From Nitrosopumilaceae archaeon (GTDB taxonomy: Archaea > Thermoproteota > Nitrososphaeria > Nitrososphaerales > Nitrosopumilaceae), in assembly GCA_965214835.1 (NCBI GenBank), contig CBDCCK010000002.1:1-64000 (forward strand): a stretch of DNA of 64,000 nt. Direction: 5' to 3'. Of this stretch, positions 17,237 through 47,034 are shown piece by piece (position 1 is the stretch's first letter; each line of letters opens with the position of its first letter). Below the pieces are notes generated by a model, which saw only the letters and a program-made list of their open reading frames with translations, was not told where the DNA came from and did no database searches. The translations under genes were made by a program, and so were the position numbers.

Positions 17237-17237
17237 A

Positions 17238-19909: not shown

Positions 19910-20010
19910 GAAATTTTTCCTCGCTATAAACACTATGATGATTTCCCTGTGTAATAAGCTGACTGTTAGCTGTCTTGTTTTTGACTTGATTCACGGAAAA
20001 AGTCCTGATC

Positions 20011-21192: not shown

Positions 21193-21450
21193 TTGATCAT
21201 CAAAAAGCGTCTTCCTGCATATTTCATGCCCATAGGCGCTCAAAAACTTTCAATCGTCACTATAGAGTCGTTTCACGGAAGCATCAGGAGGGAGTACCTG
21301 TGGCCCCATGAGTTTGGCTCCTTCCAGGACGCCTCAGACGTCATAAAGGAGGCCTTTAGGGAATATAACCATGACAGAATACACTCCTCGCTTGGCTATC
21401 TCACTCCGATGGAGTTCATCGTACGGCACCAAAGGGAGGCAGGCAAATGA
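21193..21450 (+). pseudogene. IS3-like transposase C-terminal fragment
   Basis: IESFHGSIRRE...YNHDRIHSSLGYLTP integrase-core end. Confidence 0.8.
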
Positions 21451-21618
21451 TGCCAGAACTACGCAAAAACGCCCAAAAAGTGGTTCGAAAATACGGGATC
21501 CAGATCAATCTCACTCCGATGGAGTTCATCGTACGGCACCAAAGGGAGGCAGGCAGATGATGCCAGAACTACGCAAAAACGCCCAAAAAGTGGTTCGAAA
21601 ATACGGGATCCAGATCAA
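21398..21618 (+). repeat. 110-bp tandem duplication of the IS3-like right end
   Basis: Two near-identical units ending GGGATCCAGATCA. Confidence 0.9.
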
Positions 21619-21742
21619 CTCAACCTGCACGTTTTTATGAATTTCCGTCCTTTACACGCCTGATCCATGTGGTATCCCAAAGGTTTTCAGGAATTCTTAC
21701 AATTAGACGACAACCCGCTGAAATCATTGTTTCATATGAAAA

Positions 21743-26662: not shown

Positions 26663-26983
26663 TTGCAACAACATGTCAGTCATAGAAGGGGTGAGACACT
26701 GATAGATGGTAGAAATTCCAAGTCATCACTGAGTGCAGCTGTCAGCCCGCAGACTGCCAAGCTGATAGACCGGATAATCTCAAAGTCCGAGATCTTCTCG
26801 GATCTGACAAAGCTCGGATACCCGACTGCCAGGGCCAACGTCCTACGCGCGGCCCTGATCACATTCCTTGACAACCTGGATGCAGTCGAAAAGAACCCCG
26901 AGCTTCTGCTGCGCGCATCGACTGACTATGCGATGCACCAGTCACTGGCACGGATTTTCAAAGAGGAGGAAAAGTCACGATGA
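26663..26983 (+). CDS. Small hypothetical, possible RHH-like regulator
   Basis: First gene of operon; ATGA overlap with RNR. Confidence 0.55.
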   Translation: MQQHVSHRRGETLIDGRNSKSSLSAAVSPQTAKLIDRIISKSEIFSDLTKLGYPTARANVLRAALITFLDNLDAVEKNPELLLRASTDYAMHQSLARIFKEEEKSR

Positions 26984-30984: not shown

Positions 30985-31799
30985 GCGCCTGTCAGGCCGG
31001 CATCGCCGCCGTCGGCAGCAGTAGCAGCAACAGCAGTGCAGGCCCCGGGTCCTGCTGCGCGTCGTGCGGCAGTACACCAATAACTGACACCGTGCGGTGC
31101 GAGGCAGTCTGCGTGTATTGCGGCATGATACGGGAGACCTGCCGCATTCCTGCCGTCGGCGACAGCCGGGCGCGCGAGCGACGGATGATGCGGCTGGCGG
31201 CCGCGCTGGACTGCCAGCTTGACTGCCACGGCCTGGCAGAGCCGGTCCGCCATGACGCCTTTGTCCTGGCCCGGAGGATCGTCGCAGACGATCGCGGCCT
31301 CCGGCACGGCTACAGTGCGGACACCATTGCCATGGCATGCACTCACATATCGTGCAGGCAGCACGGCATACGGCTCGGCTTCCATGCCATGACGCGCGGC
31401 CGGCCCGTCAGTACCGGAACCGTCAGACGCGCGGCAGACGCGGTTTCTGAGAAATACGGCATATCATACATGTCCGATCTAGAGAGGGTTCACTCTGAAG
31501 CAGTCCGCCTTGCGATCCGCCTGGGGGTCTGCAAGGCAGATGTGCTTGATGCCGTGCGGCACAACATACACATAATGGCCCAGCGCGGTCTGCTGGCAGG
31601 ATGCAATCCCCGCGTGGCCGCCGCCCTGCTGGTACTGCTGGCAGGAGGAGCCAGTGGTGATGGCCGCCTGCGACAGCACGCCGTCAGGTCAGACGTTGCC
31701 GCAAGGAATGCCGGCGTTTCGGCAGGCGCAATAACTGCGCTGCGCCGCAAGTGTGCCGGTGCCGGACTGTATGATGCCAGGAGGGGGTGCCTCACATGA
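30981..31799 (+). CDS. Divergent TFB/TFIIB-like protein 2
   Basis: CASC..ITD..EAVCVYCGMI; GYSADTIAMAC, AGCNPRVAAA, VAARNAGVS. Confidence 0.75.
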   Translation: MSACQAGIAAVGSSSSNSSAGPGSCCASCGSTPITDTVRCEAVCVYCGMIRETCRIPAVGDSRARERRMMRLAAALDCQLDCHGLAEPVRHDAFVLARRIVADDRGLRHGYSADTIAMACTHISCRQHGIRLGFHAMTRGRPVSTGTVRRAADAVSEKYGISYMSDLERVHSEAVRLAIRLGVCKADVLDAVRHNIHIMAQRGLLAGCNPRVAAALLVLLAGGASGDGRLRQHAVRSDVAARNAGVSAGAITALRRKCAGAGLYDARRGCLT

Positions 31800-34348
31800 C
31801 CATACGAGCAGAAGTGATGCCGCCGGATTCGGCCCTGCTATTGCTTTCTGCAGACTATGACGAGCAGGCAAACCGCATACGCCTCAGGTTATATGACGAG
31901 CAGGCAGGCAGGCTGCACGTCGTGTACCGGCCTGCCGCGCCAAGCATCTATTGTTACACCAAGACGCGGCGTTCTGCTGCCGCATTGGAGCTGACCAAAA
32001 CAGACCTGGCATCAGATGCCCCATGCAAGCTCTACAAGGAGCACGCAAAGTCGCCGTCTGCAATGGCATCACTTGCCGCGTCCTCAGACATAAAGACGTA
32101 CGAGTCTGACATACGCGCATACGAGAACTATCTGTATGATCACTCTTTGATTTGCGGATGCCACTATAGATTCACCTCCGGCAACAGCAACGGCAGTAAC
32201 AGTCACCTCCTCTCACCAGTAGATACCCAGGTTACTCCTGCAATCGGCGACTCCCTTGGCAAGATAATGTCAAATCTGGAATCAGAGCCCAAGCAGTACA
32301 GACAGCACATACTGATGTGGGCCAGGCTGCTCAGCGAGTCCGTCCCGGACATGCGCCGCGCTGCAGTCGACATAGAGATCTCGATGGACGGACGACAATC
32401 GCCGGACATGGAGGGCGTGCCGCACCGCGTCACGGCAATCGGGATACACGGGAGCGACATTGCCGTATCATACGTGCTTGATCCCGGATGCGATAATAAC
32501 AACAGCGGCCGCCGGATCATAACTGAGAATGCCGTAGGTAATGACGGTGACGGCAAGTCTACGGCGCAAGTCATCCGGTATTCCAGCGAGGCGCAGATGA
32601 TATCTGATGCAATAGCACGGTTGTCTGAATACCCGATCATACTCACGTACTATGGCGACGAGTTTGACCTGCCGTACCTGTACCGGCGCGCATCAAAGAT
32701 CGGGGCGGGTCTTGACGGCCTGCTGGTGCGCTCGGGCGGCAGCACGTGCACCACTGCCAAGTCCATACACCTTGATCTGTACCGCTTTCTCAAGCAGGCA
32801 TCAATCCAGAATTACGCGTTCAGCCACAGGTATTCTGAGTTCTCGCTTGATGCAGTGTGTCGCGCGCTTTTAGGCGAGGAGAAGACAGGCAGCGGCTCGC
32901 AGACAGACTCGATGGATATAGATACGCTTGCCGCATACTGCCACCATGACGCGTACCTGACTTACAGGCTTACCACGTTTGCAGACAACATACTGCTGCA
33001 GCTGATGGTAATGATATCGCGCATATCAAAGCTGCCGCTTGATATCGTGTGCCGCACCGGAGTCTCCACCTGGATCAAGAGCATGTTGTATTATGAGCAC
33101 AGGCAGACTGGCGCAGTCATCCCGCGCGCCGACGAGCTGCAGGAGCGCGTCGGGGAGACTGCAGACGATGCCATAATGGCAGGCAAAAAGTACCGGGGCG
33201 GGCTGGTCCTGAAACCGGAGCCGGGCGTGCACTTTGGCGTTACGGTAATGGACTTTGCAAGCCTGTATCCCAGTATCATCAAGGTAAAGAACGTCTCGTA
33301 TGAGACAATCCGGTGCGTTCATGAGGAGTGCCGGGGCAACATCGTTCCTGGCACGCACCACTGGTCGTGCACAAAAAAGATGGGGATGCTTGCTGGTCTG
33401 GTCGGCTCACTCAAGGAGTTGCGCGTATCGCACTTCAAGCCGCTTGCCAGTGCTACTGGTAATGATATCACGGAGACTGAGCGCAGCCGCTATGACATCA
33501 TCGCCCAGGCCCTCAAGGTAATACTGAATGCCGCCTCTGGCGCAATGGGGTTCGAGTCGTTTCCGCTTTATTTTCTGCCGACCGCAGAGGTCATAACATC
33601 AAGCGGAAGGCAGGCCATAGCAGACGTTGCAGACAGGTGTCGCGAGCTGGGAGTCGGCGTCCTGTACGGGGATACTGACTCTGTATTTGTGAAATGCTCT
33701 GCCGAAGAGACGCTGATGGAGGTCATGCAGTATGCAGCTGATGCCCACCGCGTCGACCTCGAGATAGACAAGCAGTACAGGTATGTCGTGCTCAGCGACC
33801 GCAAAAAAAATTACTTTGGAGTCACCACGTCAGGAAAGGTCGACGTCAAGGGGCTTGCAGGCAAAAAGTCAAACACGCCGGCATGGGTCCGCTCCGTATT
33901 TTCCGGCATACTTGATACCGTTTCGCGCGTCTCCACACATGAGGAGTTTGATGCCGCAAAATCAGACGTCCAGCAGAAGATACGCGATGCGGTGGGATGC
34001 CTATATGACAATACGGTTCCTGTAGACAGCCTTGCTTACAACGTAAAAATGTCGCGCGCGACCGGCTCGTACACAAAGTCCATGCCGCAGCACGTCCGCG
34101 CGGCAAAAAGGCTGGAGGAGGCCACCGGCACCTCCGTCAGCCCCGGCGACACGATCAGGTACGTAAAGACCCAGACCGGGGAGCACGTCGCGCCCGTCGA
34201 GCTTGCACACATTGCCAGCATAGACCGCGCAAAGTATGTCGAGTGCCTCTCCTCCGTTCTGGCACCGGTCATAGAGCCAATGGATATGGACATGGACGTC
34301 ATACTCGGACATGGTAAACAGATCGCACTGGAGAGGTACTTCCAATGA
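31796..34348 (+). CDS. polB: Family B DNA polymerase (RNA-primed, archaeal PolB1-like)
   Basis: ExoI DIE, ExoIII YCxxDA, DFASLYPS, YGDTDS, KKNY, KG motifs. Confidence 0.93.
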   Translation: MTIRAEVMPPDSALLLLSADYDEQANRIRLRLYDEQAGRLHVVYRPAAPSIYCYTKTRRSAAALELTKTDLASDAPCKLYKEHAKSPSAMASLAASSDIKTYESDIRAYENYLYDHSLICGCHYRFTSGNSNGSNSHLLSPVDTQVTPAIGDSLGKIMSNLESEPKQYRQHILMWARLLSESVPDMRRAAVDIEISMDGRQSPDMEGVPHRVTAIGIHGSDIAVSYVLDPGCDNNNSGRRIITENAVGNDGDGKSTAQVIRYSSEAQMISDAIARLSEYPIILTYYGDEFDLPYLYRRASKIGAGLDGLLVRSGGSTCTTAKSIHLDLYRFLKQASIQNYAFSHRYSEFSLDAVCRALLGEEKTGSGSQTDSMDIDTLAAYCHHDAYLTYRLTTFADNILLQLMVMISRISKLPLDIVCRTGVSTWIKSMLYYEHRQTGAVIPRADELQERVGETADDAIMAGKKYRGGLVLKPEPGVHFGVTVMDFASLYPSIIKVKNVSYETIRCVHEECRGNIVPGTHHWSCTKKMGMLAGLVGSLKELRVSHFKPLASATGNDITETERSRYDIIAQALKVILNAASGAMGFESFPLYFLPTAEVITSSGRQAIADVADRCRELGVGVLYGDTDSVFVKCSAEETLMEVMQYAADAHRVDLEIDKQYRYVVLSDRKKNYFGVTTSGKVDVKGLAGKKSNTPAWVRSVFSGILDTVSRVSTHEEFDAAKSDVQQKIRDAVGCLYDNTVPVDSLAYNVKMSRATGSYTKSMPQHVRAAKRLEEATGTSVSPGDTIRYVKTQTGEHVAPVELAHIASIDRAKYVECLSSVLAPVIEPMDMDMDVILGHGKQIALERYFQ

Positions 34349-34439
34349 GCCAGTATGTGATCTGCGTCAAAAATCGCAGCAGACTGCCGCATCCTGGACG
34401 CAGCGTGCCTGTCCCGGCTGAACAGGCCACAAGCCCTGG

Positions 34440-35722
34440 AAATGTGGCAATATTGCCACATTTGTGGAGTGGTAAAGTCGTCAGATTCCGTGGAAAATGT
34501 GGCAAATTGCCACATTTGGGTCTGGCCTCCACAAAACCGTGGAAAATGTGGCAATATTGCCACATTTGGGTAGCAATCTCCAGAATGCAGTCCAGAACCC
34601 GCTCTAGGAGGCCAGAAAATGTGGCAATATTGCCACATTCAGACTGTATGGCCACGGTTACGCGCCTTGGCCGCCTGCAAGACGCCAGAAAATGTGGCAA
34701 ATTGCCACATTCAGGGGTCATATCCAAAGCAGGCAAGACCGATACACACAGGAAAATGTGGCAAATTGCCACATTCAGACTGCCTTGCGCCGGAGGTAAA
34801 CTTGTGCCAGAATCGGCAAAAATGTGGCAAATTGCCACATTTGCATCCGGCCTGCCTGCAAGCCTTGAGAAATGTGGCAATATTGCCACATTCTGGCAAA
34901 GTCGCCTTTATCGTTCTGTAAAATGTGGCAAATTGCCACATTCTGACACCGGCGATAGCCTGAAGAATCCCCTAAAATGTGGCAATATTGCCACATTTGC
35001 ATCCGGCCTGCCTGCAAGCCTTGAGAAATGTGGCAAATTGCCACATTCTGACACCGGCGGTAGCCTGAAGAATCCCCTAAAATGTGGCAATATTGCCACA
35101 TTTGCATCCGGCCTGCCTGCAAGCCTTGAGAAATGTGGCAAATTGCCACATTCTGACACCGGCGGTAGCCTGAAGAATCCCCTAAAATGTGGCAATATTG
35201 CCACATTCTGGCAGCCGTTACATGATTGTGAGATCAGGTCGTGTAAAATGTGGCAAATTGCCACATTTGAGAGGCGGCAGGACTGCCCCGGAACCACTGC
35301 GGAATCCTCAAAATGTGGCAATATTGCCACATTCTGGCGGCCTTTGCACCGCCGTAGGCCAATGCCTCCTCAAAGGCTCCGTAAAATGTGGCAATATTGC
35401 CACATTTGGGCTGAGGCGTGCCTGCATTGGAGTCAGACCTCTCCCAGAGGGTCAGAAAATGTGGCAATATTGCCACATTCTGGCAGGCTTGGGAAGGCAT
35501 TCAAAAAATGTGGCAAATTGCCACATTTGCGTCTGGCCTCTCTGAATCCTTGGAAAATGTGGCAATATTGCCACATTCTGGCGGCACTGTCACGGCCCGC
35601 CGCCGGATCCGCCTGCAAAGCGCTGGAAAATGTGGCAATATTGCCACATTCTGGCTGTGGTGAGCCGGCCACCTGGCCAGACACCTTGCAGAGCCTTGAA
35701 AATGTGGCAATATTGCCACATT
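34440..35722. repeat. Array of 22 palindromes AAATGTGGCAA(T)ATTGCCACATT with ~26-50-bp variable spacers
   Basis: Counted by hand: 13 copies with centre AATATT, 9 with AAATT; includes a 105-bp unit repeated about three times. Confidence 0.95.
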
Positions 35723-35737
35723 CTACCCCCTCCTGCC

Positions 35738-36128
35738 TGTTCCAAAGTTCCAGAGAATCTCAATTCCATTTTCAGGCACAAATGTTCCAAAGTTCCAGAG
35801 AATTCGAATTCCATTTTTGCCTGTTCCAAAGTTCCAGAGGATCCCAATTCCATTTTCAGGCACAAATGTTCCAAAGTTCCAGAGAATTCGAATTCCATTT
35901 TTGCCTGTTCCAAAGTTCCAGAGGATCCCAATTCCATTTTCAGGCACAAATGTTCCAAAGTTCCAGAGAATTCGAATTCCATTTTTGCCTGTTCCAAAGT
36001 TCCAGAGGATCCCAATTCCATTTTCAGGCACAAATGTTCCAAAGTTCCAGAGAATTCGAATTCCATTTTTGCCTGTTCCAAAGTTCCAGAGAATTCGAAT
36101 TCCATTTTGGGGGTGTTCCAAAGTTCCA
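35738..36128 (+). repeat. 10 copies of TGTTCCAAAGTTCCA in alternating 45/39-bp units (84-bp period)
   Basis: Starts at 35738, 35783, 35822, 35867, 35906, 35951, 35990, 36035, 36074, 36114. Confidence 0.95.
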
Positions 36129-36266
36129 GATGGGGAGTGCCTGCTTAGGGAGCCGGAGTCATGAACAGGGAAGAGCGAAGGATGATCCGCGAGGAAATCA
36201 GGCATCTCAGGGCGCAGAAAAGGAGATCGAGGCTCATATCAGACGGAAACTGGAGGATCTGAAAAA

Positions 36267-36452
36267 ATGAAATCCGATCTGAAAAAGGCATCAGAAGAAG
36301 TGACCATATCATTGGAGCATATAGCTGGCGCACTGGCATGTATTGACATGGGTGAGTTTCCGAAAATGGATGATCAACTAAAGAAACAACTACTGGAACT
36401 GTCTACGGTGGCTGCTGCGTTGGATACCATATGGGAGGAGAATGAAAAATAA
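36267..36452 (+). CDS. Small hypothetical protein
   Basis: 61 aa; overlapping stop/start with the next gene. Confidence 0.55.
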   Translation: MKSDLKKASEEVTISLEHIAGALACIDMGEFPKMDDQLKKQLLELSTVAAALDTIWEENEK

Positions 36453-36628
36453 TGCACATGTGGAAGGTTTTGCGTCTGGACAGTGAAGGAACATGGTATC
36501 CGGACACGTTTGATAACAAGGAAAGCGCGATGAAAGGGCTGGAGCGGGAACTGACCAAGGACTTTATCCGTGTAGAGATACTGGACATAACAGTACCAGA
36601 CGACGAGGAGGTTGATGCCGATGCCTGA
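36452..36628 (+). CDS. Small hypothetical protein (58 aa, not in ORF track)
   Basis: MHMWKVLRLDSEGTWYPDTF...EEVDADA*; TAATG coupling, GGAGG upstream. Confidence 0.55.
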   Translation: MHMWKVLRLDSEGTWYPDTFDNKESAMKGLERELTKDFIRVEILDITVPDDEEVDADA

Positions 36629-36782
36629 TCCCATCTGCGACGGCTGCGGCGAGCGATACCTTCCTGGCACCGGCCGGGAGGGATACTGCGCTGCCTGCAA
36701 GGCCGAGTTTGACCGGGATTTCGAGGCCGACATCTCCCGGGTAAAAAGAGCGATAAAGAAAGAGGTTGATGCCGATGCCTGA
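36621..36782 (+). CDS. Small Zn-finger protein (53 aa, not in ORF track)
   Basis: MPDPICDGCG...YCAACK; RBS-like GAGG; overlaps both neighbours. Confidence 0.6.
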   Translation: MPDPICDGCGERYLPGTGREGYCAACKAEFDRDFEADISRVKRAIKKEVDADA

Positions 36783-37980
36783 CATTCCGATTGATGACAT
36801 AGTGATTGGCACGCGCTTTCGCGGCGACGTGGGGGACATCACGCAGCTTGCCGAGTCAATCAGCGATATAGGCCTGCTACACCCAATAGTCCTTGATTCA
36901 GACCACAGACTCATTGCCGGACTGCGCCGCATCGAGGCATACAAGCATCTGGGGCTTGCGAGCATACCATACCATGCCGTCGGCAACAACAAGGACAGCC
37001 CCGAATGTGAAATCCATGAAAACAGCCTCCGAAAATCATTTGGCATAAGCGAGGTCGTCTCGATATTCAACCATGTCAAGGAGTCAAAAAAGCAAAAGCC
37101 TGAAAAGGAAAAAGATGATGCGGTGACTGCCGAAACCCCCGGTGACGCACCGGGTAAAAACGGCAAAAATAACGGCCGCACCCGCGACGTGGTATCTGCC
37201 ATTACAGGATACAGCCCCCGGCAGGTGCAAAAGATGTCGGATCTGGTAAAGCGCGCCGGCCAAAAGCCAGAGTACTGCAAGCTGTTGCAGGACGTCGAAT
37301 CAGGCAAAAAATCAGTAAACACCGCACACAAGATAGCCATGCGCGAGGAGCGCGCGATGCCAAAGGCCGAGATGCCCGACGGCATATACGACGTGATTTT
37401 GTGCGACGTGCCAATCCGGTATGATACCACCACGCGTTCGGACGGGGCTGCCGACCACTATTCCATGATGACAGTCGACGAGTTGTGTGAGCTTCAGGTG
37501 CCGGCTGCGGCCAACGCCGTCATCTTCTTCTGGATGTCTCCATCGATAATGTATGATACCGTCCCCCGGCAGGTTGCCATAACAGACGAGGAGGGCGGCG
37601 GCATGATCCAGGGAACGGTTGATGTCCCCGTGTACAAGGCCATACTGGATTCATGGGGATTCACCCGTGTAAAGGGGGAGTTCAGCTGGGACAAGGAGAA
37701 GATGGGCAGCGGGTATATCGTGCGCGGCCAGCACGAGAACTGCATCATTGCGCACCGCGGCAGGATGCCGGCGCCTGCCGAGTCATTCCCGTCTGTCATC
37801 CGCGCGCCCCGCCGGCAGTTTTCGCGCAAGCCCGACGAGATGTACGGTATCATAGAGAGGATGTATCCGGGCAGGCACAAATATCTGGAGCTGTTTGCGC
37901 GACAGCAGCACAGCCCCGCATGGGACACGTACGGGAACCAGACGGCTCACTTTGAGGAGGGGGGTGCCGGCGATGAGTGA
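36775..37980 (+). CDS. ParB/Srx N-terminal domain fused to MT-A70-like methyltransferase
   Basis: LAESISDIGLLHPI..LIAGLRR..EIHENSLR; C-terminal WDK, RGQHE, SRKPDE, YLELFAR. Confidence 0.85.
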   Translation: MPDIPIDDIVIGTRFRGDVGDITQLAESISDIGLLHPIVLDSDHRLIAGLRRIEAYKHLGLASIPYHAVGNNKDSPECEIHENSLRKSFGISEVVSIFNHVKESKKQKPEKEKDDAVTAETPGDAPGKNGKNNGRTRDVVSAITGYSPRQVQKMSDLVKRAGQKPEYCKLLQDVESGKKSVNTAHKIAMREERAMPKAEMPDGIYDVILCDVPIRYDTTTRSDGAADHYSMMTVDELCELQVPAAANAVIFFWMSPSIMYDTVPRQVAITDEEGGGMIQGTVDVPVYKAILDSWGFTRVKGEFSWDKEKMGSGYIVRGQHENCIIAHRGRMPAPAESFPSVIRAPRRQFSRKPDEMYGIIERMYPGRHKYLELFARQQHSPAWDTYGNQTAHFEEGGAGDE

Positions 37981-38917
37981 TCTTGAAGGTGTCGCATCGC
38001 GCATAACAGATGAGACCCCCATGATCTCCCTTGAGCACACCGGCGAGATCCTCGCGTATGTCGACGGCGCATACGTGCCCGGCGGCGAGATCATAGTCGA
38101 GCAGTCCTGCGAGGAGCTGATACCCGACTGCACGACTGAGGCCCGCGAATCCGTCCTGGAGATCGTCCGCCGCGCCACCGTGACCCCGCGCATGTGCTGC
38201 GATCCCCCCGGCCTCCTGGTGTGCTCAAACGGCCTGCTCGATCTGCACACCATGAGCATCGAGTCCCACTCGCCGCTTGTCCGGTGCAGGACAAAGCTTG
38301 ACGTGGAATACGACCCGTGCGCCAGGGCGCCGCAGTACACGGACATGATATACCGGATTCTGCCTGACGGGCCCTCCCGCGAGGCCCTGCACCGGGCCTT
38401 TGGTTCTGCGCTGCTCAGGGCGTCCTGTCCCCCTCCCGCCCCCGCCCTGCTGCTTGGCGGCGCTGCAGGCGTCGAGGGGCACGACCTGGTGCTCGGAATC
38501 ATGGAGCGCGTACTCGGCCCCAGGAATGTCGCGCACCTCAGGCCGTCAGACGTCATGCACCACCCGTACATGAGATCCCAGCTTGACGGCAGGATTGCCA
38601 GCATATCAAGGTATAACACGGTCTCGGAGCTGCTGCACGTCGCACACGGAAGAGGCATCCTTGCCTCGCCTGCGCTTGCCGTGCAGCAAAAGGGCGCAGG
38701 CCAGTACCTCATACCAAACCACGCCCGCCTGTTTCTCTCATGTAATGACCCGCGCCCGCCTGCGCGCATCCTGTCCCATTTTGGCTGCGTGATACGATTT
38801 TCTGACTGCGGCGACTGCGGGGCGGACTCTGATTTGGATTCCCTGCTTGCCGGCCCCGAAAGATCCGGCATATTGAACCTGCTCATCGAGGCGGCCGGCG
38901 GAGGTGCCATACAGTGA
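37973..38917 (+). CDS. Degenerate D5/P4-like helicase paralog
   Basis: Colinear with the core of 38914-41130 (NGLLDL, KLDVEYDP, LDGRIA, NHARL) but Walker A lost. Confidence 0.75.
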   Translation: MSDLEGVASRITDETPMISLEHTGEILAYVDGAYVPGGEIIVEQSCEELIPDCTTEARESVLEIVRRATVTPRMCCDPPGLLVCSNGLLDLHTMSIESHSPLVRCRTKLDVEYDPCARAPQYTDMIYRILPDGPSREALHRAFGSALLRASCPPPAPALLLGGAAGVEGHDLVLGIMERVLGPRNVAHLRPSDVMHHPYMRSQLDGRIASISRYNTVSELLHVAHGRGILASPALAVQQKGAGQYLIPNHARLFLSCNDPRPPARILSHFGCVIRFSDCGDCGADSDLDSLLAGPERSGILNLLIEAAGGGAIQ

Positions 38918-41130
38918 GCGGCAGCACGCACGCAGAAAAGTTCGGCTGCACTGCCAGGATGATCGACGACTTTCTGCACAGGTGTGTCAGGCAGAATCAC
39001 GGGATACTGTCAGCCAGGTGCAGCGCCGGGACGCACGACATAGATCCCGAGAGGCCCGCGTACGTCTTTGCCGGCGAGACAGGCAACCTGACTGACTCGT
39101 ACTGCCACATGGCAGAGTGCTTTCTGTCCGTGCTGGATCCTGCGACGATAAGGTCCATGCATGATGGCGGCAACCGCAGTAGTAGTGGTGGTGGTAATAA
39201 CGGCGACAGGAAGACTCCTGCCGCTGCCGCTGCCGCCTCTGCGGCCCGCCGTGGAAGCGCGTCGCCCGTAAAGCGCAGGCGCGTCTCGTACCAGTGCTTT
39301 GACTGCGACAACCGCCGGGGCTCATACAAGGACTTTGAGGAGTGCCGACGCCTCCGGCACGACGTCGTCCCGTACTCGGAGGGCCCTCCGCCCCCGTCGA
39401 CGTCGCCGTCCCCCTCAGGGGATTCGGCTGCGGCAGCCGCAGCGGGTGGTGACAGGACTGCGGCTGCCGCAACAACCGCAGGTGGCGGCGGTAATGGCGA
39501 CAGGCCGACTCATACGGATCACGCGATGGCAATCATGGCAGACTATAATTTTTTGACCCTGAATGACACCCGCGAGATACTCGTGTACCGCGACGGCGTG
39601 TACGTGGCCGGCGGCGACATCGTAATAGAGGAGGAGGCAGAGCGCCGCGTCCCCGACTGCGCTACCGTCATGCGCAAGGAGATCCAGAATACCATACGGG
39701 CGCACACGTACGTTGACAGGAGGCTGTTTGATTCTGATGACTCCAAGCTGGTGGTTGAAAACGGCGTGCTTGACCTGGTTACGGGCAAGCTCGGCGCGCA
39801 CACGCCGCACGAGCCGTGCCGCATAAAGCTCAACGTCGCCTATGATCCGGACGCCCTGTCACCCCACTATGACGAATTTATGAGCCGCGTCGTCCCCGAC
39901 GAGGAGGACCGCCTCACCCTGCACGAGTTATTTGGCGCGGCGCTGTTGCGCAACTCGCCTAATCTGGAAAAGATAACGATGTGCACCGGCGAGGGCGCCA
40001 ACGGAAAGTCGACGCTGCTCGGCGTGTACAACGACATACTTGGAAACCAGAACGTGGCGCACGTCTCCATACACGACCTGATAAACCACAGGTTCATGCG
40101 CTCGAACCTTGACGGCAAGCTGGCAAACATCTATGCGGACATCAGCAACAACGAGCTGGAGCACATGGGAGTGGTAAAGTCGCTTGTCACAGGTGAGACT
40201 GTGACCGTCGAGAAAAAGGGCACCAACAGCTTTGACATTGAGAACCACGCAAAGCTCATCTTCAGTTGCAACCGCCTGCCGGAGATATCAGAAGACAGTG
40301 ATGCCATATTCAGGCGCTTTGTGATAATACCGTTTACCGTCAGGATACCCGAGGATGAGCGCAACCCGGCCCTCAAGGGAGAGCTGCTAAAGGAAAAGTC
40401 GGGGATATTCAACATACTGCTGAAATGCGCGCTGGAAGTCAGGCGCGCCGGCGCGCTGACTCACGGCGGCACAACAATGGAGACGCGCCGCGCCTGGAAG
40501 GGTATGGCCGATCCCGTCGAGGGCTTTTCTGCCGGTCATCTGTCCAGGGAGCCCGGACACAACGAGCCAAAGTCGGCCGTGTACGAGGCGTACGTGGCGT
40601 GGTGCAGCAACGCCGACCTCAAGCCCAAGACCAAGCAGGCCTTCTCTGCGCGCATGGAGCGGCTCAAGTACAGGTGGGGCAAGGCGCGCATTGACGGTAA
40701 GTCAGTCAACGCGTGGCTGGACGTCCGCTTATTTTCCGGCGAGCAGGCAGGCGATCCGACCGTGGCAGGTGGCGGTGGTGGTGATGATGATGGCATCGGT
40801 GGTGGTGATGATATCTTGCGGCCTGCGGCAGGTGGCGGTGGCAGCAGCAGTGGTAGTGGTGATGATGATAGTGGGACTGCTGACGGCAGTAGCAGTGACC
40901 GCCCCGGTGATGATTCAAAGCGATGGTCCGAGATGGTGCCCGAGTCCGAGATGGTGCCCGGCACCACATACTATGAGTGCCGCACGTGCGGCGCCGGCCC
41001 GTACACCGGCGGTGCCACCGGCATCGGCGGGCGCCTCATCTCCGACGTCCACCGCTCCATGGGACACGACTATGGGCCGTGTAAGGATGCAAAAAAGGAC
41101 GGGAAGGAGGATGGTGACGGCGGCACATGA
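38914..41130 (+). CDS. D5/P4-family SF3 helicase (phage/plasmid primase-helicase C-terminal type) with Zn-binding extensions
   Basis: ENGVLDL, GEGANGKST, KLIFSCNRLP, AIFRRF, C-terminal wHTH-like segment. Confidence 0.9.
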   Translation: MSGSTHAEKFGCTARMIDDFLHRCVRQNHGILSARCSAGTHDIDPERPAYVFAGETGNLTDSYCHMAECFLSVLDPATIRSMHDGGNRSSSGGGNNGDRKTPAAAAAASAARRGSASPVKRRRVSYQCFDCDNRRGSYKDFEECRRLRHDVVPYSEGPPPPSTSPSPSGDSAAAAAAGGDRTAAAATTAGGGGNGDRPTHTDHAMAIMADYNFLTLNDTREILVYRDGVYVAGGDIVIEEEAERRVPDCATVMRKEIQNTIRAHTYVDRRLFDSDDSKLVVENGVLDLVTGKLGAHTPHEPCRIKLNVAYDPDALSPHYDEFMSRVVPDEEDRLTLHELFGAALLRNSPNLEKITMCTGEGANGKSTLLGVYNDILGNQNVAHVSIHDLINHRFMRSNLDGKLANIYADISNNELEHMGVVKSLVTGETVTVEKKGTNSFDIENHAKLIFSCNRLPEISEDSDAIFRRFVIIPFTVRIPEDERNPALKGELLKEKSGIFNILLKCALEVRRAGALTHGGTTMETRRAWKGMADPVEGFSAGHLSREPGHNEPKSAVYEAYVAWCSNADLKPKTKQAFSARMERLKYRWGKARIDGKSVNAWLDVRLFSGEQAGDPTVAGGGGGDDDGIGGGDDILRPAAGGGGSSSGSGDDDSGTADGSSSDRPGDDSKRWSEMVPESEMVPGTTYYECRTCGAGPYTGGATGIGGRLISDVHRSMGHDYGPCKDAKKDGKEDGDGGT

Positions 41131-42791
41131 GTCCTCCTACTCCTGCTACTCCCCCTTCTCCACAGCTTCTCGCCTCGTTTCCCCCCGGACTCTCCCCGCG
41201 TCCGGAGCAAAAACGCATACTTGCAGACATCGGCGAGGCGCTTGCCTCGGGGTACCGCGATATCATACTGTGCGCGCCCACCGGTGTTGGCAAGAGCGCC
41301 GTGGCAGCTGCGGTCGCCCGCTCGATGGGAAGCTCGTTCGTGCTTACCGCCCAGAAGATACTCCAGGATCAGTACTCGCGCGACTTTGGCTCGTGGCTTG
41401 CCCCCGGCAAGGGCAAGGGCAACTTTCCGTGCCGCGCCCTGTACGAGGGGGTCATGTCCCGTGACGAGGCGGCATCCGACCCGTCCGTATCGTGCGCCAA
41501 CGGCGTGTGCTCGTGGCACACGCCGCAGGGAACCGCGCACTGCGAGTACAAGCCCGTCCTGGCCGAGTTCGAGCCCGGCGGTGAGTGTGGTGATGACGAC
41601 AATTGCTGCCACTATTATTCGGCAAAATATACGGCGCTTGCCTCGCCGCACTCTGTATACAACTATGCGGCATACTTTGCAATACGCGGCCAGTTTCTTC
41701 CGGACCGGCTCATCCGGAGGCAGGTCGTCATTTGTGACGAGGCCCACGAGCTTGAGGACGTGCTGGCAGAGCACGTCGGCTGCGAGATAACAAGATCGTA
41801 CCTTGCCGACGCCGACTCTGCGTTTTCCGAGTTTGAGGATGTCGATGCCGTCGAGGGTGTAACCCGCATGGTCTCGCTTCTCTGCGACAGGTACGGTGAG
41901 CGCCTGCGCAGCTCGCCGGACGGGAGGATGCAGTCCCGGCTGGAGCGCCTCTCGCTGTGCAGGTACGAGCTGGCAAACAGCCCGGGCAACGTGTCCGTAC
42001 AGGTCAACCGATATGATGACGGCCACGTGCGGTCCGTCTCTGTCCGGCCCCTGTCCGTGTCGCGGTACGCCGAGAGGTATTTGGACTCGCCGCACCGGAT
42101 CTTCATGTCTGCTACCATCCATCCGGACATGTTCTGCGGCCGCATGGGCATTGACGGGCGCGACTGCTGCTTTGTGGACGTAAAGACCGCCCCCTTTGAG
42201 GCCTCCCGCGCCCCCGTCTCCTTCTGCGACGTGGCCGCCATCAACCGCGATACCGGCGAGGACGAGTACGCCCTGCTATACGATAGGATCGACTCGATAC
42301 TGGACATGCACGGCAACCACAAGGGGTTGATACTGGTGTCTTCGGTGGATCAGTGCCGCAGCATTGCCGCCGGGCTGTCCGAACGCAACCGGGGCAGGCT
42401 GCTGCAGGTATACAACTCGGCGCCGCTTGAGCGCGACGAGACGCTGCGCCTGCATGCCGGCTCCCCCGAGCCGACGGTCCTGATATCGCCGAGCCTGTGG
42501 TACGGCGTTGACCTCCGCGGGATGCTCTCCAGGTTCTGCATAATAGCAAAGTGTCCGTTTCCGTCTCTGGCAGACAGGCGTGTCGGCGCGCTGGCAAAGG
42601 CAAGCCCCGTATGGTACCGGTATCACACACTGTGCAAGATGCTCCAGGGGATGGGGCGCAGCATACGGAGCGAGGACGACTGGGCCGACACGTATGTTCT
42701 GGACTCCAACGCCGGCAAGCTCGTGCGGCAGATGTCCGCATACGTCCCTGACGCATACGGGGAGGCGCTCTCGGAGGTAGGGGGAAGATGA
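41127..42791 (+). CDS. XPD/DinG/Rad3-family SF2 helicase
   Basis: PRPEQ, APTGVGKS, Cys cluster, DEAH, SAT, GVD, QGMGRSIRS. Confidence 0.9.
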   Translation: MSPPTPATPPSPQLLASFPPGLSPRPEQKRILADIGEALASGYRDIILCAPTGVGKSAVAAAVARSMGSSFVLTAQKILQDQYSRDFGSWLAPGKGKGNFPCRALYEGVMSRDEAASDPSVSCANGVCSWHTPQGTAHCEYKPVLAEFEPGGECGDDDNCCHYYSAKYTALASPHSVYNYAAYFAIRGQFLPDRLIRRQVVICDEAHELEDVLAEHVGCEITRSYLADADSAFSEFEDVDAVEGVTRMVSLLCDRYGERLRSSPDGRMQSRLERLSLCRYELANSPGNVSVQVNRYDDGHVRSVSVRPLSVSRYAERYLDSPHRIFMSATIHPDMFCGRMGIDGRDCCFVDVKTAPFEASRAPVSFCDVAAINRDTGEDEYALLYDRIDSILDMHGNHKGLILVSSVDQCRSIAAGLSERNRGRLLQVYNSAPLERDETLRLHAGSPEPTVLISPSLWYGVDLRGMLSRFCIIAKCPFPSLADRRVGALAKASPVWYRYHTLCKMLQGMGRSIRSEDDWADTYVLDSNAGKLVRQMSAYVPDAYGEALSEVGGR

Positions 42792-43864
42792 GCGGCCTGG
42801 CGCCGGCGGCGGCGGCCGCGGCTGTTTCTGCCAGGAAGCCCCCGTTCCTCCCCGGGGTCATACCCGAGACCCTCGGCAGGGGCGGGCTCACCGTCTCGGA
42901 GCTGCTGCACGGTGCATCCTGTGATGCCGTGCGCCGCGAGGCCGTAAACCGCGTGATATCGGCCGAGACGGGAAGGCAGTACTGCGCGGTAGGCGGCCCC
43001 GTCGTCATGATCGGCGGCATGACATACAGGCAGGACGTGCTGACGTATGTCGTGGCCTCGGCCATTTGTAACGTAAAGGGCGACAGGGTCCTGACAAAAA
43101 AGTTCGCGCTGTCCGAGTCCGTGACTGCCGAGCCCTTTCTTCGCGGCCACCCGAGCCCGGAGGACCTGGTATCCGAGATGGCATCCATAAAGGCGCTGCG
43201 CGACGGCGCTGAATACCGCGTTCCCGTCGCCGACTATCTTCCGCTTGCCTGCCGCATAAGCAGCATGGAATGGAAGCTGGTAAACCAGCGCGTCACCGGT
43301 GGGTACGTCATGCTTGCCAAGAGGAGGATGGTGCGGCTGGTGCGGCACGCCATGGCCGCATACGTCATTGATCAGGTCAACGGTATGTCCCTTGGGAGCA
43401 GGGATGCAGAGGCGCTTGCCGGATATGCGGCCAAGGTGGGGACCACCCACGTGTGGGCCGGCAGGAGGCCTCCTGCAGACGGCGGCCGCCTGCCCCCGTG
43501 CATCGCGCACTGCAGGCAGCAGCTGAAGGAGGGCGAGAACCTGCCCCATGTAGCCCGGTTCCTGCTTGCTTCATACCTGCTCAAGGCAGGTACCCCCGCA
43601 GACGACATTGCAGTCCTGTTTCAGACGGCCCCCGACTATAACGAGGCAGTCACGAAATACCAGATAGGCCAGATAGCGAGATCAGAGTACCTCCCCCCCA
43701 GCTGCGCCAAGGTGGAGACGGCAGGATGGTGCAGGAGGAGCGAGGCCTGTGGGAACATAGCCAACCCGATCCAGTTTGGGAGGCATGACGGCCGCGTCCT
43801 ACAAGAGGACGAAAATGACACGCCCGTCCCTGAAGAAAAAAGCATGGAGGGGGACATCCCCTGA
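42788..43864 (+). CDS. priL: Archaeal primase large subunit (PriL)-like
   Basis: WKLVNQ...GYV, PPCI, NLPHVARF, APDYNE..TKYQI, YLPPSC..C....C Fe-S domain. Confidence 0.88.
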   Translation: MSGLAPAAAAAAVSARKPPFLPGVIPETLGRGGLTVSELLHGASCDAVRREAVNRVISAETGRQYCAVGGPVVMIGGMTYRQDVLTYVVASAICNVKGDRVLTKKFALSESVTAEPFLRGHPSPEDLVSEMASIKALRDGAEYRVPVADYLPLACRISSMEWKLVNQRVTGGYVMLAKRRMVRLVRHAMAAYVIDQVNGMSLGSRDAEALAGYAAKVGTTHVWAGRRPPADGGRLPPCIAHCRQQLKEGENLPHVARFLLASYLLKAGTPADDIAVLFQTAPDYNEAVTKYQIGQIARSEYLPPSCAKVETAGWCRRSEACGNIANPIQFGRHDGRVLQEDENDTPVPEEKSMEGDIP

Positions 43865-46026: not shown

Positions 46027-46194
46027 TTTTTTAAAAATGTCTGGTTGGTTGGTTTGGCCAATCTTGATGTTTTTTGGATTGGGTTTTGTGTGATGAAAGA
46101 AGGAATGTTTTGTTGTTTTTGTCGGTGTTGGTGGTGTGTAATGTGATCCATATGTGGCGTAACCTGGCACCCTGCGATCAGAACTTTTAACGGT

Positions 46195-46313
46195 TGTTCC
46201 AAAGTTCCATTGTTCCAGCGATTCCATACTGCCGTATATTTGGGGAAAATAAGGAAAAATGTCGTCTGCCACACAGCGGTGTAGAAATGCTGGAACACTG
46301 GAACTTTGGAACA
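46195..46313. repeat. 25-bp inverted repeat built from the TGTTCCAAAGTTCCA motif
   Basis: 46195-46219 vs 46289-46313, one mismatch. Confidence 0.9.
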
Positions 46314-46847
46314 TTTCTCACGCCTGACGTTTGCCACACAAGGAACCTTCAGAATTTGATCACTTTGCCACAAAACGAGACTGGAACAGATTTTGGCGGA
46401 ATTCATCCCGGATCTCCGAAAAGCGTGCGGATCTCGACGTGGCAAAATACTCGTCGGAATGGATTTTGAAAATTGATCTAAATTTCGGGCTTTTTGGGAA
46501 TTTGATCTGAAATAGCTGGAACAACTCTGGAACATGGTGGAACATCCGGGTGTTTTTGGCGGATTTCGGATCGGTTTTTGCGGAATTTTTCGGAATGGAT
46601 TTGGGGGTCTGATCGCAAAAATCACCTATTTTGAGAAAAACTCTGGAACAATGGAACACAAATATCAAAAAAGTACCGGAAAAGCGATCAGGATTCCCAT
46701 GGGTGTTCTTTGATCGATGTTGGTGTAGTCGGGATGTTATTTCTTGTTTTGCGCAACCTTGATGATGATGACGCAAATATCATGGTAGATATGCTGCAGA
46801 CAAGGACAAACTGTAAAACTTGGGAAGGCGCGACAAACCAAAGATCC

Positions 46848-46940
46848 GTACGAGGTCACCTACCCCCATCAGTCAGGCATGAATTAGCATGAATGATTGT
46901 AATCTTCGTGCCTAACTAACAAGGGGACGTGACCACATAC
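46848..46940 (+). mobile_element. MITE family A with 8-bp TSD AAAGATCC
   Basis: Closely matches 3567-3658; TSD on both flanks. Confidence 0.9.
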
Positions 46941-47034
46941 AAAGATCCAATAGTGTGTGGGAACTGGCCCAGACCTCATCCAAACTGATCAGAAACCCCA
47001 AGATGATCCAAAATCAGAAACCGTGAATACAATC

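What the first reader, a model, noticed from the sequence alone, without database searches (positions are those of the whole stretch)
34440..35722. CRISPR-looking but non-CRISPR array of 22 palindromes with near helically phased spacing inside a replication operon
Seen: the dyad AATGTGGCAATATTGCCACATT (or its 1-nt-shorter variant) is otherwise invariant in 22 copies while the spacers diverge. Start-to-start distances are 55,49,73,73,64,66,50,51,54,51,54,51,54,61,65,73,73,49,49,73,72, clustering near 5, 6 and 7 helical turns. Some spacers look like diverged relatives (after repeats 2 and 19; 4 and 20), so the array grew by duplication with selection on the palindrome. No cas gene is in the window. 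Inference: a multivalent binding platform for a dimeric protein, such as a centromere-like parS array for the ParB-domain protein 1 kb downstream, an origin/iteron field for the D5 helicase, or a host-factor sponge. An alternative is a transcribed hairpin array processed into small RNAs.
Basis: partly seen in the sequence, partly recalled or inferred. Interest (0 to 1): 0.9.

Follow-up and report, generated by a model that had tools for sequence, protein, structure and literature searches.

The report
Palindrome array in archaeal replication operon
An integrated mobile element in an ammonia-oxidising archaeon carries 22 identical short DNA palindromes beside a second repeat array, most likely docking sites for proteins that control the element's replication or inheritance, and not a CRISPR.

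Summary
The array is real. There are 22 copies (13 of 22 nt, 9 of 21 nt) at 34441-35722, with exactly the reported spacings. None is expected by chance and it occurs nowhere else in the 3.2 Mb genome. A second study's contigs recover it in a ~98.5% variant. It is not a CRISPR: the only cas1 lies 2.45 Mb away beside an array with an unrelated 36-nt repeat, and the spacers here are 27-51 nt and related to one another.

It lies between polB and a ParB_N-MT-A70 / D5-helicase / XPD / PriL operon of an integrated element (about 23.6-47 kb). It abuts a second array of 10 TGTTCCAAAGTTCCA iterons. That GTTCCA motif also forms an inverted, AT-rich, origin-like region at 46.2-46.65 kb. The same motif marks the helicase-polB spacer in 3 of 4 related elements. 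The origin-like region holds the genome's only other cluster of palindrome half-sites.

Best reading (0.55): an amplified protein-binding field for replication control or maintenance. The binding protein is unidentified. The ParB-parS reading is weakened and helical phasing is weak.

Unexplained: one 641-codon frame, overlapping neighbouring genes at both ends, stays open through both arrays but has no codon bias and no homologues.

The parts
34441..35722 (.). P array: 22 perfect palindromes (13 x 22 nt, 9 x 21 nt) separated by 27-51 nt spacers that are related to one another
35734..36130 (+). I array: 84-nt (2 x 42) tandem units giving 10 direct copies of TGTTCCAAAGTTCCA, i.e. 20 GTTCCA hexamers
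34345..36270 (+). 641-codon open frame through both arrays. Its ATG overlaps the polB stop (ATGA) and its stop overlaps the next ATG (ATGA). It has no codon periodicity and no homologues.
46195..46660 (.). Origin-like non-coding region. GTTCCA iterons run forward at 46196-46212 and reverse at 46291-46307, 46382, 46517-46538 and 46644-46652, around AT-rich DNA. Three palindrome half-sites lie at 46331, 46365 and 46437-46445.
31787..34348 (+). Family B DNA polymerase
   Evidence: DNA_pol_B 6e-49
36267..36782 (+). Three small overlapping ORFs (61, 58 and 53 aa; the last is a CxxC...CxxC zinc-ribbon type) that link ORF641 to the ParB_N-methylase gene. No homologues in 10 relatives' loci.
36766..37980 (+). 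ParB_N + MT-A70 DNA methyltransferase fusion (likely ATG at 36775)
37895..38917 (+). Truncated D5_N / primase-helicase paralogue
38914..41130 (+). D5-like SF3 primase-helicase (D5_N, DUF5906, Pox_D5)
41127..42791 (+). XPD/Rad3-like helicase
42788..43864 (+). Primase large-subunit (PriL)-like protein
26663..26983 (+). orf106, an orphan. Possible ribbon-helix-helix DNA binder and a candidate palindrome-binding protein. This is a lead only.
   Evidence: (Atlas nearest MetJ, 0.91)
23598..25322 (+). Tyrosine-recombinase-like integrase at the left side of the GC-rich island

Best explanation
The 22 palindromes are high-affinity double-stranded binding sites for a sequence-specific, probably dimeric, protein of an integrated ~23 kb polB/D5-helicase replicon in an ammonia-oxidising archaeon. 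With the adjoining array of 10 GTTCCA-type iterons they form an amplified second cluster of the same two site types found in the element's origin-like region at 46.2-46.65 kb.

By analogy with paired iteron clusters in other replicons, the field most likely governs replication control or stable maintenance. Possible modes are titration or pairing (handcuffing) with the origin, tethering or segregation of the excised form, or a protein roadblock inside the operon that tunes read-through from polB into the helicase and primase genes.

Shown: the sites, their invariance, the co-occurrence of both motifs at two places, and conservation of the GTTCCA iteron in relatives. Inferred: that proteins bind them, which protein binds the palindrome, and what binding achieves.
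For: 1) Selection on the dyad. There are 0 substitutions in 22 copies outside the centre, while related spacers differ by 25-35%.
2) Uniqueness. This is the only locus in the genome, and no site within 3 mismatches exists elsewhere.
3) Position. It lies in a tight replication operon between polB and the ParB_N-methylase, D5 helicase, XPD and PriL genes.
4) The adjoining I array carries TGTTCCAAAGTTCCA 10 times. The same 15-mer occurs at 46195(+) and 46299(-) around AT-rich DNA. Genome-wide, windows with >=6 GTTCCA/TGGAAC per 600 nt exist only at 35739 (20 sites) and 46196 (12 sites).
5) Relatives. Of 8 fetched D5-helicase loci, 4 carry D5hel, polB, XPD and PriL. In 3 of those 4 a GTTCCA cluster lies in or at the edge of the helicase-polB spacer. 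None is found in the 4 polB-less loci. The layout matches the window: inverted triplets around an AT-rich core, and in G428 a following 9-unit direct array.
6) The only genome-wide cluster of the half-site 7-mer GTGGCAA/TTGCCAC outside the array (>=3 in 150 nt) is at 46331-46439, inside that origin-like region.
7) The dyad centre CAAATTG recurs once per unit in the arrays of G428 (9 copies) and G291 (9 copies), and AAATTGC occurs in the G014 unit. P(>=3 of 4 units share a 7-mer with the palindrome) = 7e-4 by shuffling.
8) A strain variant from another study keeps the array, with one whole unit (66 nt) deleted.
Against: - No binding protein is identified. orf106 is only RHH-like by eye and by one language-model look-up. 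Its AlphaFold model is poor (pLDDT 66) and Foldseek finds nothing.
- The palindrome array has no counterpart in 10 relatives' loci, in 200 other genomes of the family, or in the viral, metagenome, phage and plasmid collections. There is therefore no comparative test of the array itself.
- Both 21- and 22-nt forms are common. A rigid dimer on duplex DNA would usually not tolerate that. It fits a hairpin with a 3- or 4-nt loop at least as well.
- The closest helicase relative (G041, 50% identity) shows no GTTCCA cluster in 20 kb.
- The open frame through the field is not explained by a pure DNA-site model.
- The shared-7-mer observation was made post hoc.
Confidence: 0.55

Rival explanations
1. 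Centromere (parS-like) array loaded by the ParB_N-MT-A70 protein encoded 1 kb downstream. It would segregate the excised element.
For: Clustered palindromes lie immediately upstream of a ParB_N-domain gene. PHROG hits include 'ParB-like partition' families. Thaumarchaeal ICEs pair TFIIB with ParB-like genes (PMC6563490, passages read), and this element has two TFB genes upstream. Arrays lie upstream of or near ParB_N-methylase genes in G014 and G291. The centre CAA(W)TTG resembles the MunI-type methylase site, which I recall rather than tested.
Against: Pfam finds only ParB_N plus a methyltransferase, with no HTH or dimerisation domain. Relatives keep ParB_N but swap the methylase family to N6_N4_Mtase. 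That is typical of orphan phage/plasmid methylases rather than partition proteins. No AAA_31 or CbiA ParA-type ATPase lies in the window; the nearest is at 237 kb. G041 has the ParB_N gene but no array.
Confidence: 0.12
2. The palindromes act as hairpins in single-stranded nucleic acid. They could be an RNA hairpin array within the operon transcript, processed into small RNAs or modulating translation or decay. Alternatively they could be ssDNA hairpins that serve as primase/helicase loading or fork-pausing sites.
For: Each unit folds into a 9-bp stem with a 3- or 4-nt loop (-11.5 and -12.3 kcal/mol). The only variation among 22 copies is at the loop position. The flanks are asymmetric: A at -1 in 22 of 22 copies. 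The array is co-directional with, and inside, a transcribed-looking operon.
Against: The stems show no covariation, so structure cannot be separated from sequence selection. The spacers show no structure (mean z -0.2 on + and 0.0 on -). No Rfam family reaches its gathering score anywhere in the window. Half-sites, not hairpins, recur in the origin-like region. There are no RNA data.
Confidence: 0.12
3. ORF641 is a genuine repeat protein and is itself the functional product. The DNA repeats would be a by-product.
For: There are 0 stops in 641 codons against 10-24 in the other five frames. 0 of 20000 shuffles leave any frame open. The frame-product estimate for the palindrome array is 6e-4. ATGA overlaps occur at both ends. 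The 105-, 84- and 66-nt indels are all multiples of 3. A gene caller has it on record.
Against: The palindrome is read in all three frames: 5, 11 and 6 copies in frames 0, 1 and 2. Conservation is therefore at the nucleotide level, not the peptide level. GC by codon position is flat (0.50/0.49/0.49) against GC3 of 0.67-0.79 in neighbouring genes. There is no homologue among 5.8 billion proteins (352-1122 aa range only) and no Pfam or PHROG hit. Iteron regions of relatives are not in long ORFs.
Confidence: 0.05
4. Decoy or sponge that sequesters a host DNA-binding factor.
For: 22 identical high-density sites would titrate a dimeric factor efficiently. This is inference only.
Against: The host genome has no other site within 3 mismatches; the nearest have 4-5 mismatches. 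The host origin boxes near cdc6 (GGAGTGGAAATAAAGGGGT) are unrelated. Half-sites cluster only inside the element itself.
Confidence: 0.04
5. A CRISPR or virus-borne mini-CRISPR array.
For: Superficial look: short palindromic repeats interspaced by non-identical spacers.
Against: The repeats are 21-22 nt. The spacers are 27-51 nt, partly duplicated and related to one another. The single cas1 lies at C2:2480729 beside a 148-repeat array whose 36-nt repeat is unrelated. The spacers have no significant match in the genome, in phage records or in plasmid records.
Confidence: 0.01

Closest known systems
F-plasmid sopC and similar multi-site plasmid centromeres (recalled, not read here)
   Same: A tandem field of about a dozen or more units, each with a short inverted repeat bound by a dimeric protein, next to maintenance genes.
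   Different: sopC units are regular (43 bp) and are served by a canonical ParB (SopB) with a ParA partner. Here the spacing is irregular (49-73 bp), no ParA lies in the window, and the ParB_N protein is a methylase fusion.
Epstein-Barr virus oriP: family of repeats (about 20 palindromic EBNA1 sites) plus the dyad-symmetry replicator (recalled)
   Same: There are two separate clusters of the same binding sites. One is a large array of palindromes used for maintenance and the other is the initiation site. The array is similar in size.
   Different: That is a eukaryotic virus with one known binding protein. Here there are two site types (palindrome and GTTCCA iteron), the binder is unknown, and the origin-like region carries only palindrome half-sites.
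Satellite phage P4 ori/crr and plasmid P1 incC/incA iteron pairs (recalled)
   Same: Iterons occur in two clusters kilobases apart around a replication gene. In P4 the binder is a D5/alpha-type primase-helicase, the same helicase family as here. This best matches the GTTCCA array at 35.7-36.1 kb together with the 46.2-46.65 kb region.
   Different: Those iterons are asymmetric direct repeats. The 22 perfect palindromes have no counterpart there.
Thaumarchaeal integrated elements (Krupovic et al. 2019, PMC6563490; listing, abstract start and 12 passages seen; supplements not seen)
   Same: Integrated elements of ammonia-oxidising archaea with TFIIB genes next to ParB-like genes. Some encode PolB or other replication proteins.
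   Different: The 12 passages returned by my term search ('iteron', 'palindrom', 'direct repeats' and others) describe no such array. The single 'palindrom' hit was in a reference title.
CRISPR arrays
   Same: Short palindromic repeats interspaced by differing sequences.
   Different: The defining features fail: repeat and spacer sizes, spacer uniqueness, and a cognate cas locus.
pRN1 replicon of Sulfolobus (PMC4234260; only the search listing and start of the abstract seen)
   Same: An archaeal replicon with a small repressor gene, a primase/SF3-helicase gene, and a cis region downstream of the replication gene.
   Different: That replicon is small. No multi-copy palindrome field is mentioned in the part I saw.

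Membership tests
CRISPR array | Constant-length repeats (usually >=23 nt) separated by unique spacers of near-uniform length | tested here: not met
   Repeats are 21-22 nt. Spacers are 27-51 nt, 3+3 of them duplicated and several pairs 67-75% alike.
CRISPR array | Cognate cas genes or the same repeat at a cas locus | tested here: not met
   The single cas1 lies at C2:2480729-2481571, next to 148 repeats of an unrelated 36-nt sequence.
CRISPR array | Spacers that match foreign DNA | tested here: not met
   No significant hit in the own genome, in 50,697 phage records or in 72,556 plasmid records. IMG/VR and metagenomes were not searched with the spacers.
ParABS centromere (parS) | Clustered palindromic sites near the par genes | tested here: met
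   22 dyads end 1.04 kb upstream of a ParB_N gene.
ParABS centromere (parS) | ParB with an HTH DNA-binding domain and a dimerisation domain | tested here: not met
   Pfam finds only ParB_N (residues 23-69) and MT-A70. Relatives have ParB_N + N6_N4_Mtase. A fold-level search was not done.
ParABS centromere (parS) | Partner ParA-type ATPase in the element | tested here: not met
   There are 0 AAA_31 or CbiA matches inside the window. The nearest is at C2:237718.
ParABS centromere (parS) | ParB binds and spreads from the sites | not testable with these tools
   Needs EMSA or ChIP.
Iteron-type origin / replication-control locus | Multiple copies of one motif beside the initiator/helicase gene | tested here: met
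   The P array and the I array lie between polB and the D5 helicase genes.
Iteron-type origin / replication-control locus | The same motif at an AT-rich region with inverted arrangement (the origin proper) | tested here: inconclusive
   Met for GTTCCA (46195+ / 46299-). For the palindrome only three 1-mismatch half-sites are present.
Iteron-type origin / replication-control locus | Motif conserved in related replicons | tested here: inconclusive
   GTTCCA clusters occur in 3 of 4 polB/D5 relatives. The palindrome occurs in 0 of 10 relatives' loci; only its centre 7-mer recurs.
Iteron-type origin / replication-control locus | Initiator binding and origin activity | not testable with these tools
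   Needs binding and replication assays.
Ordinary protein-coding gene (ORF641) | Open frame with codon-position bias and homologues | tested here: not met
   The frame is open. GC1/2/3 is flat at 0.50/0.49/0.49 against GC3 of 0.67-0.79 in neighbours. Only the protein itself was found among 5.8e9 proteins of 352-1122 aa. There is no Pfam or PHROG hit.

The most novel reading that the evidence does not exclude
The repeat field is a translated cis-element. A 1.9 kb array of protein-binding dyads and iterons is kept as an open, translationally coupled reading frame between polB and the helicase/primase genes.

Ribosomes would have to plough through 22 hairpin-forming, protein-occupiable sites to carry expression downstream. 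Site occupancy, and hence element copy number or binder level, would then gate synthesis of the replisome. This would be an operon-internal roadblock rheostat that couples replication control to transcription-translation coupling in an archaeon.

Selection would act on the absence of stops, not on the peptide.
Probability: 0.12. Interest if true: 0.8.

Novelty: new variant of a known kind. Interest (0 to 1): 0.55.

Why it matters
- Replication origins, copy control and segregation of mobile elements in ammonia-oxidising archaea are essentially uncharacterised. This work gives concrete candidate cis-sites: a GTTCCA iteron shared by a family of polB/D5-helicase elements, an origin-like region, and a unique 22-dyad field.
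- The 21/22-bp palindrome is an ideal bait for finding a new archaeal site-specific DNA-binding protein.
- The element family could supply parts (origin plus helicase) for vectors in a group that has no genetic tools.
- The stop-free frame through a non-coding-looking repeat field may reveal how archaea protect long cis-regions inside operons from polarity.
- It is also a clean example of a CRISPR look-alike that array finders may miscall.

Tried and rejected
- The exact or near-exact palindrome elsewhere:
  - Viral contigs: 0 hits.
  - Genome contigs: 14 stretches, all bacterial MAGs with 1-2 matches each. In the three Bacillota loci inspected the palindrome sits in A/T-flanked intergenic hairpins, which I take to be terminator- or operator-like (my reading).
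  - Metagenome contigs with a two-repeat pattern: 18 stretches, at most 5 dyads per locus, none an array.
  - Same family: among 200 other genomes, 1 had a single 2-mismatch match.
- polB, D5 helicase and ParB-methylase queries in viral contigs found no relatives.
- blastn of the whole field against phages and plasmids found no match.
- RNA evidence: no RNA holder is listed, so expression remains untested.
- Complex prediction on two copies of orf106 gave no verdict.
- The AlphaFold monomer of orf106 is poor (pLDDT 66). Foldseek against the PDB found nothing at E<=0.001.
- orf106 has no sequence homologue.
- att sites: no direct repeat longer than 12 nt links 19.5-23.7 kb with 45.3-47.3 kb. 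The element's ends are therefore only approximate, from GC content and gene content.
- GATC enrichment in the origin-like region is only 2.2 times the genome average, and the idea was dropped.
- The host origin boxes are unrelated to both motifs.
- Strain SNPs in ORF641: 5 of 11 listed (4 of 9 unique) are synonymous in frame 0 and none creates a stop. That is too few to judge.
- Helical phasing is not robust.
Full report
WHAT IS THERE

There are 22 copies of a perfect palindrome at 34441-35722: 13 of the 22-nt form and 9 of a 21-nt form that lacks one central base. The start-to-start distances are exactly those listed. Shuffled sequence gives no match. Outside the centre the 22 copies carry no substitution.

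The spacers are 27-51 nt and are related by descent:
- A 105-nt unit is triplicated (S7=S10=S12; S9~S11=S13).
- Other pairs are 65-75% identical, against a shuffled null with mean 46%, 95th percentile 57% and maximum 65%.

Related units have therefore diverged by a quarter or more of their spacer positions while the dyad stayed untouched. That is strong purifying selection on the 21/22 bp.

IS IT REAL, AND IS IT FOUND ELSEWHERE?

The window is the first 64 kb of a 3.21 Mb chromosome. The genome encodes archaeal AmoA and Orc1/Cdc6.

The palindrome occurs nowhere else in this genome, and no site within 3 mismatches exists.

Run X1 covers the region with 17 of 20 contig pieces at >=99%. Runs X5 and X6 come from a different study. 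They carry a ~98-99% variant of polB, the array and the ParB-methylase gene. That variant has its own SNPs in the spacers, one SNP in repeat 18, and a 66-nt deletion of exactly one unit. This rules out an assembly artefact. The copy number itself is not checked by these short-read contigs.

No related array was found:
- 1 of 200 other family genomes had a lone 2-mismatch site.
- Viral contigs gave no hit.
- There are 14 bacterial MAG stretches with 1-2 copies each. In the three Bacillota loci inspected these are A/T-flanked intergenic hairpins.
- There are 18 metagenome stretches with at most 5 dyads.
- The phage and plasmid collections gave no blastn match.

CONTEXT

The array lies in a GC-rich island (about 0.60-0.65 GC against 0.53 for the chromosome). 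The genes run in this order:

| Coordinates | Feature |
|---|---|
| 23598 | tyrosine-recombinase-like integrase |
| 26663 | orphan orf106 |
| 26980 | ribonucleotide reductase |
| 30004, 30957 | two TFIIB homologues |
| 31787-34348 | family B polymerase |
| 34441-36130 | the repeat field |
| 36267-36782 | three small ORFs |
| 36766 | ParB_N+MT-A70 methyltransferase |
| 37895 | truncated D5_N paralogue |
| 38914 | D5-like SF3 helicase |
| 41127 | XPD-like helicase |
| 42788 | PriL-like protein |
| 43.9-45.3 kb | several zinc-ribbon ORFs |
| ~45.6-46.0 kb | weak RusA-like ORF |
| 46030-47035 | non-coding stretch before a host SNF2-type gene on the other strand |

From polB to PriL most gene junctions are short overlaps of stop and start codons. 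I found no att repeats, so the element's ends are approximate.

THE SECOND ARRAY AND THE ORIGIN-LIKE REGION

Directly after the last palindrome comes an 84-nt (2 x 42) tandem array. It carries TGTTCCAAAGTTCCA ten times.

The same 15-mer occurs once forward at 46195 and once reversed at 46299, around an AT-rich core. Further reversed GGAACA groups lie at 46517-46538 and 46644-46652. Genome-wide, windows with six or more GTTCCA/TGGAAC per 600 nt exist only at these two places, with 20 and 12 sites.

Relatives:
- The D5 helicase has matches in 55 of 401 sampled genomes of the class at E<=1e-20, counting the window's own genome.
- I fetched 8 of the best loci. Four of the eight (G041, G039, G428, G014) carry D5 helicase, polB, XPD and PriL in that order. 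Three of those four also have a ParB_N gene upstream.
- In three of those four a GTTCCA cluster lies in or at the edge of the helicase-polB spacer. None of the four polB-less loci has one.
- The layout is the same as in the window. G014 and G428 show inverted doublets or triplets around AT-rich DNA. G428 follows these with nine direct 54-nt units, each holding CTGGAATGAATGGAAC.

The GTTCCA repeat is therefore a conserved iteron of this replicon family. The helicase is the obvious candidate binder, but that is inference. The 46.2-46.65 kb region is the likely origin.

LINKS BETWEEN THE PALINDROME AND THAT SYSTEM

- The half-site 7-mer GTGGCAA/TTGCCAC occurs 711 times in the chromosome. Outside the array, the only place with three copies within 150 nt is 46331-46439, inside the origin-like region.
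- The dyad centre CAAATTG occurs once per unit in the otherwise unrelated arrays of G428 (9 copies) and G291 (9 copies, as GCAAATTG). G291 is an element with a 37%-identical integrase and the closest MT-A70 fusion. The G014 unit has AAATTGC.
- By shuffling the units, three of four sharing a 7-mer with the palindrome has P=7e-4. This was noticed post hoc and is a lead, not proof.

In G428 the CAAATTG element and the TTCCA iterons are interleaved in one unit. In the window they are sorted into two adjacent arrays.

THE OPEN READING FRAME

One frame (34345-36270, 641 codons) has no stop through both arrays. The other five frames have 10-24 stops.

How unlikely this is depends on the null:
- Shuffling the unique segments never left any of the six frames open (0 of 20000).
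- A more conservative estimate multiplies, spacer by spacer, the fraction of frames that are open. It gives 6e-4 for the palindrome array. That is roughly 2e-3 to 1e-2 after allowing for near-duplicate spacers and the choice of frame.

Further points in favour of selection for openness:
- The ORF's ATG overlaps the polB stop, and its stop overlaps the ATG of the next small ORF.
- The 105-nt and 84-nt duplications and the 66-nt strain deletion are all multiples of three.

Points against an ordinary gene:
- The palindrome is read in all three frames.
- GC by codon position is flat, while all neighbouring genes have GC3 of 0.67-0.79.
- The protein has no relative among 5.8 billion proteins of 352-1122 aa and no Pfam or PHROG hit.
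- The iteron regions of relatives are not spanned by long ORFs.

I read this as possible selection for absence of stops only. Keeping ribosomes on the transcript across a 1.9 kb cis-region would protect downstream replication genes from polarity. Ribosome-free RNA as a target of the archaeal termination factor is recalled, not tested here. I put this at under one half and flag it as unexplained.

ALTERNATIVES TESTED

CRISPR:
- The genome's single cas1 lies beside a 148-repeat array, and there is a 7-repeat array elsewhere. Their 36-nt repeat is unrelated.
- The spacers of the palindrome array match nothing significant in the genome, in phage records or in plasmid records.
- Repeat and spacer sizes are wrong for a CRISPR.

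ParB-parS:
- The ParB_N domain is fused to a methylase here.
- Relatives fuse it to a methylase of another family.
- No ParA-type ATPase lies in the window.

Host-factor sponge:
- There is no native site in the host.
- The host origin boxes are unrelated.

RNA or ssDNA hairpins:
- The stems are stable (-11.5 and -12.3 kcal/mol) and the only variable position is the loop. This reading therefore stays alive.
- The spacers are unstructured, Rfam finds nothing, and no RNA run is listed.

Helical phasing:
- It is weak. P is 0.07 for adjacent distances, 0.41 with duplicate spacings collapsed, and 0.02-0.09 for the 10.50-bp periodogram peak.

WHICH PROTEIN BINDS?

This is unknown. orf106 has a strand-helix-helix pattern by eye. 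Its nearest clusters in the protein atlas are MetJ repressors (score 0.91, below the shared-feature count that marks secure hits). It has no homologues. Its model is poor and has no fold match.

The other candidates are the methylase fusion, the D5_N paralogue and the small ORFs.

MECHANISM PROPOSED

Shown:
- There are two site types.
- The dyad is invariant.
- Both types co-occur at two loci.
- The iteron is conserved in relatives.

Inferred:
- Element proteins occupy both loci.
- The internal field acts as a reservoir or partner for the origin, by titration, pairing or tethering.
- Because it sits inside the operon, it could also act as a roadblock that tunes helicase and primase expression.

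COMPARISON AND NOVELTY

Functionally it resembles multi-site plasmid centromeres (sopC), the two-cluster iteron systems of P4 and P1, and EBV's family of repeats plus dyad-symmetry element. All of these are recalled, not read here.

It fails the membership tests for CRISPR and for a canonical ParABS system. It meets only part of those for iteron loci.

In the thaumarchaeal mobile-element survey (PMC6563490) I saw the listing, the start of the abstract and the 12 passages returned for my search terms. None described such an array. Its supplements were closed. Two further literature searches returned nothing on comparable arrays.

I class it as a new variant of a known kind. It is of moderate interest. 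The open frame is the one odd feature.

Noticed in passing
G000 contig C1:6366-6401 and C2:2482178-2492939: One spacer (number 41) of the host's 148-repeat CRISPR array matches the separate 13,188-bp contig C1 at 36 of 36 bases. C1 may therefore be, or contain, a mobile element targeted by its own host.
   Followed up: no
G000 C2:~899,800-900,150 (L079:282-598): Upstream of the single orc1/cdc6 gene there are four copies (two direct, two inverted) of GGAGTGGAAATAAAGGGGT-type boxes. This is presumably the chromosomal origin. The boxes are unrelated to both element motifs.
   Followed up: partly
L043-L046 (G041, G039, G428, G014): A conserved replication module recurs in elements of related archaea: ParB_N-methylase, D5-like helicase, repeat region, polB, XPD-like helicase, PriL-like protein. 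In the window polB has moved to the other side of the repeat field. ParB_N is kept while the fused methylase family differs (MT-A70 versus N6_N4_Mtase).
   Followed up: partly
window 36608-36628 and 36763-36783: A 21-nt direct repeat GAGGTTGATGCCGATGCCTGA precedes both the 53-aa zinc-ribbon ORF and the ParB_N-methylase start. The two preceding ORFs therefore end with the same EVDADA tail, and both downstream genes begin MPD. It looks like a duplicated translation-initiation junction.
   Followed up: no
L077:189-539 (G291) and L046:4404-5133 (G014): Other elements of the family carry their own tandem arrays: 25 nt x 9 in G291, and 37 nt x 4.8 plus 21 nt x 3.2 in G014. Their units are unrelated apart from the AAATTG core.
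   Followed up: partly
L066, L070 (metagenome contigs); L008, L009 (Bacillota MAG): The shorter dyad TGTGGCAA-N-TTGCCACA recurs 4-5 times, often in pairs about 47 bp apart, in unrelated 40% GC contigs. It also occurs as A/T-flanked hairpins in Firmicute MAGs. It is a commonly reused operator- or terminator-like palindrome. I recall that the 21-nt form also fits the TGGC-N5-GCCA dyad known from NFI sites, which I take to be coincidence.
   Followed up: no
window 33282-33505 (inside polB): Contigs in three runs (X1, X5, X6) join 33282 to 33505, skipping 222 nt, with only 27 nt on the shorter side. Several loose ends lie at 33137-33531. This is probably cross-mapping of other polB genes at conserved motifs, but a length variant is not excluded.
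   Followed up: no
G000, many sites (e.g. C2:1112535, 1318214, 2402269; C1:584): TGTGGCACAGCTGTCACA and its complement recur at about 15 places. A GTCCTCTGATGTTCCT short tandem recurs at 8 or more places, including C1. These look like parts of a dispersed insertion-sequence-like repeat.
   Followed up: no
window 14000-20000; 21398-21622; 1601-1722: A 6 kb low-GC island (0.37-0.41) lies just left of the element. There are also two perfect tandem repeats (110 nt x 2.1 and 21 nt x 5.8) that were not examined.
   Followed up: no
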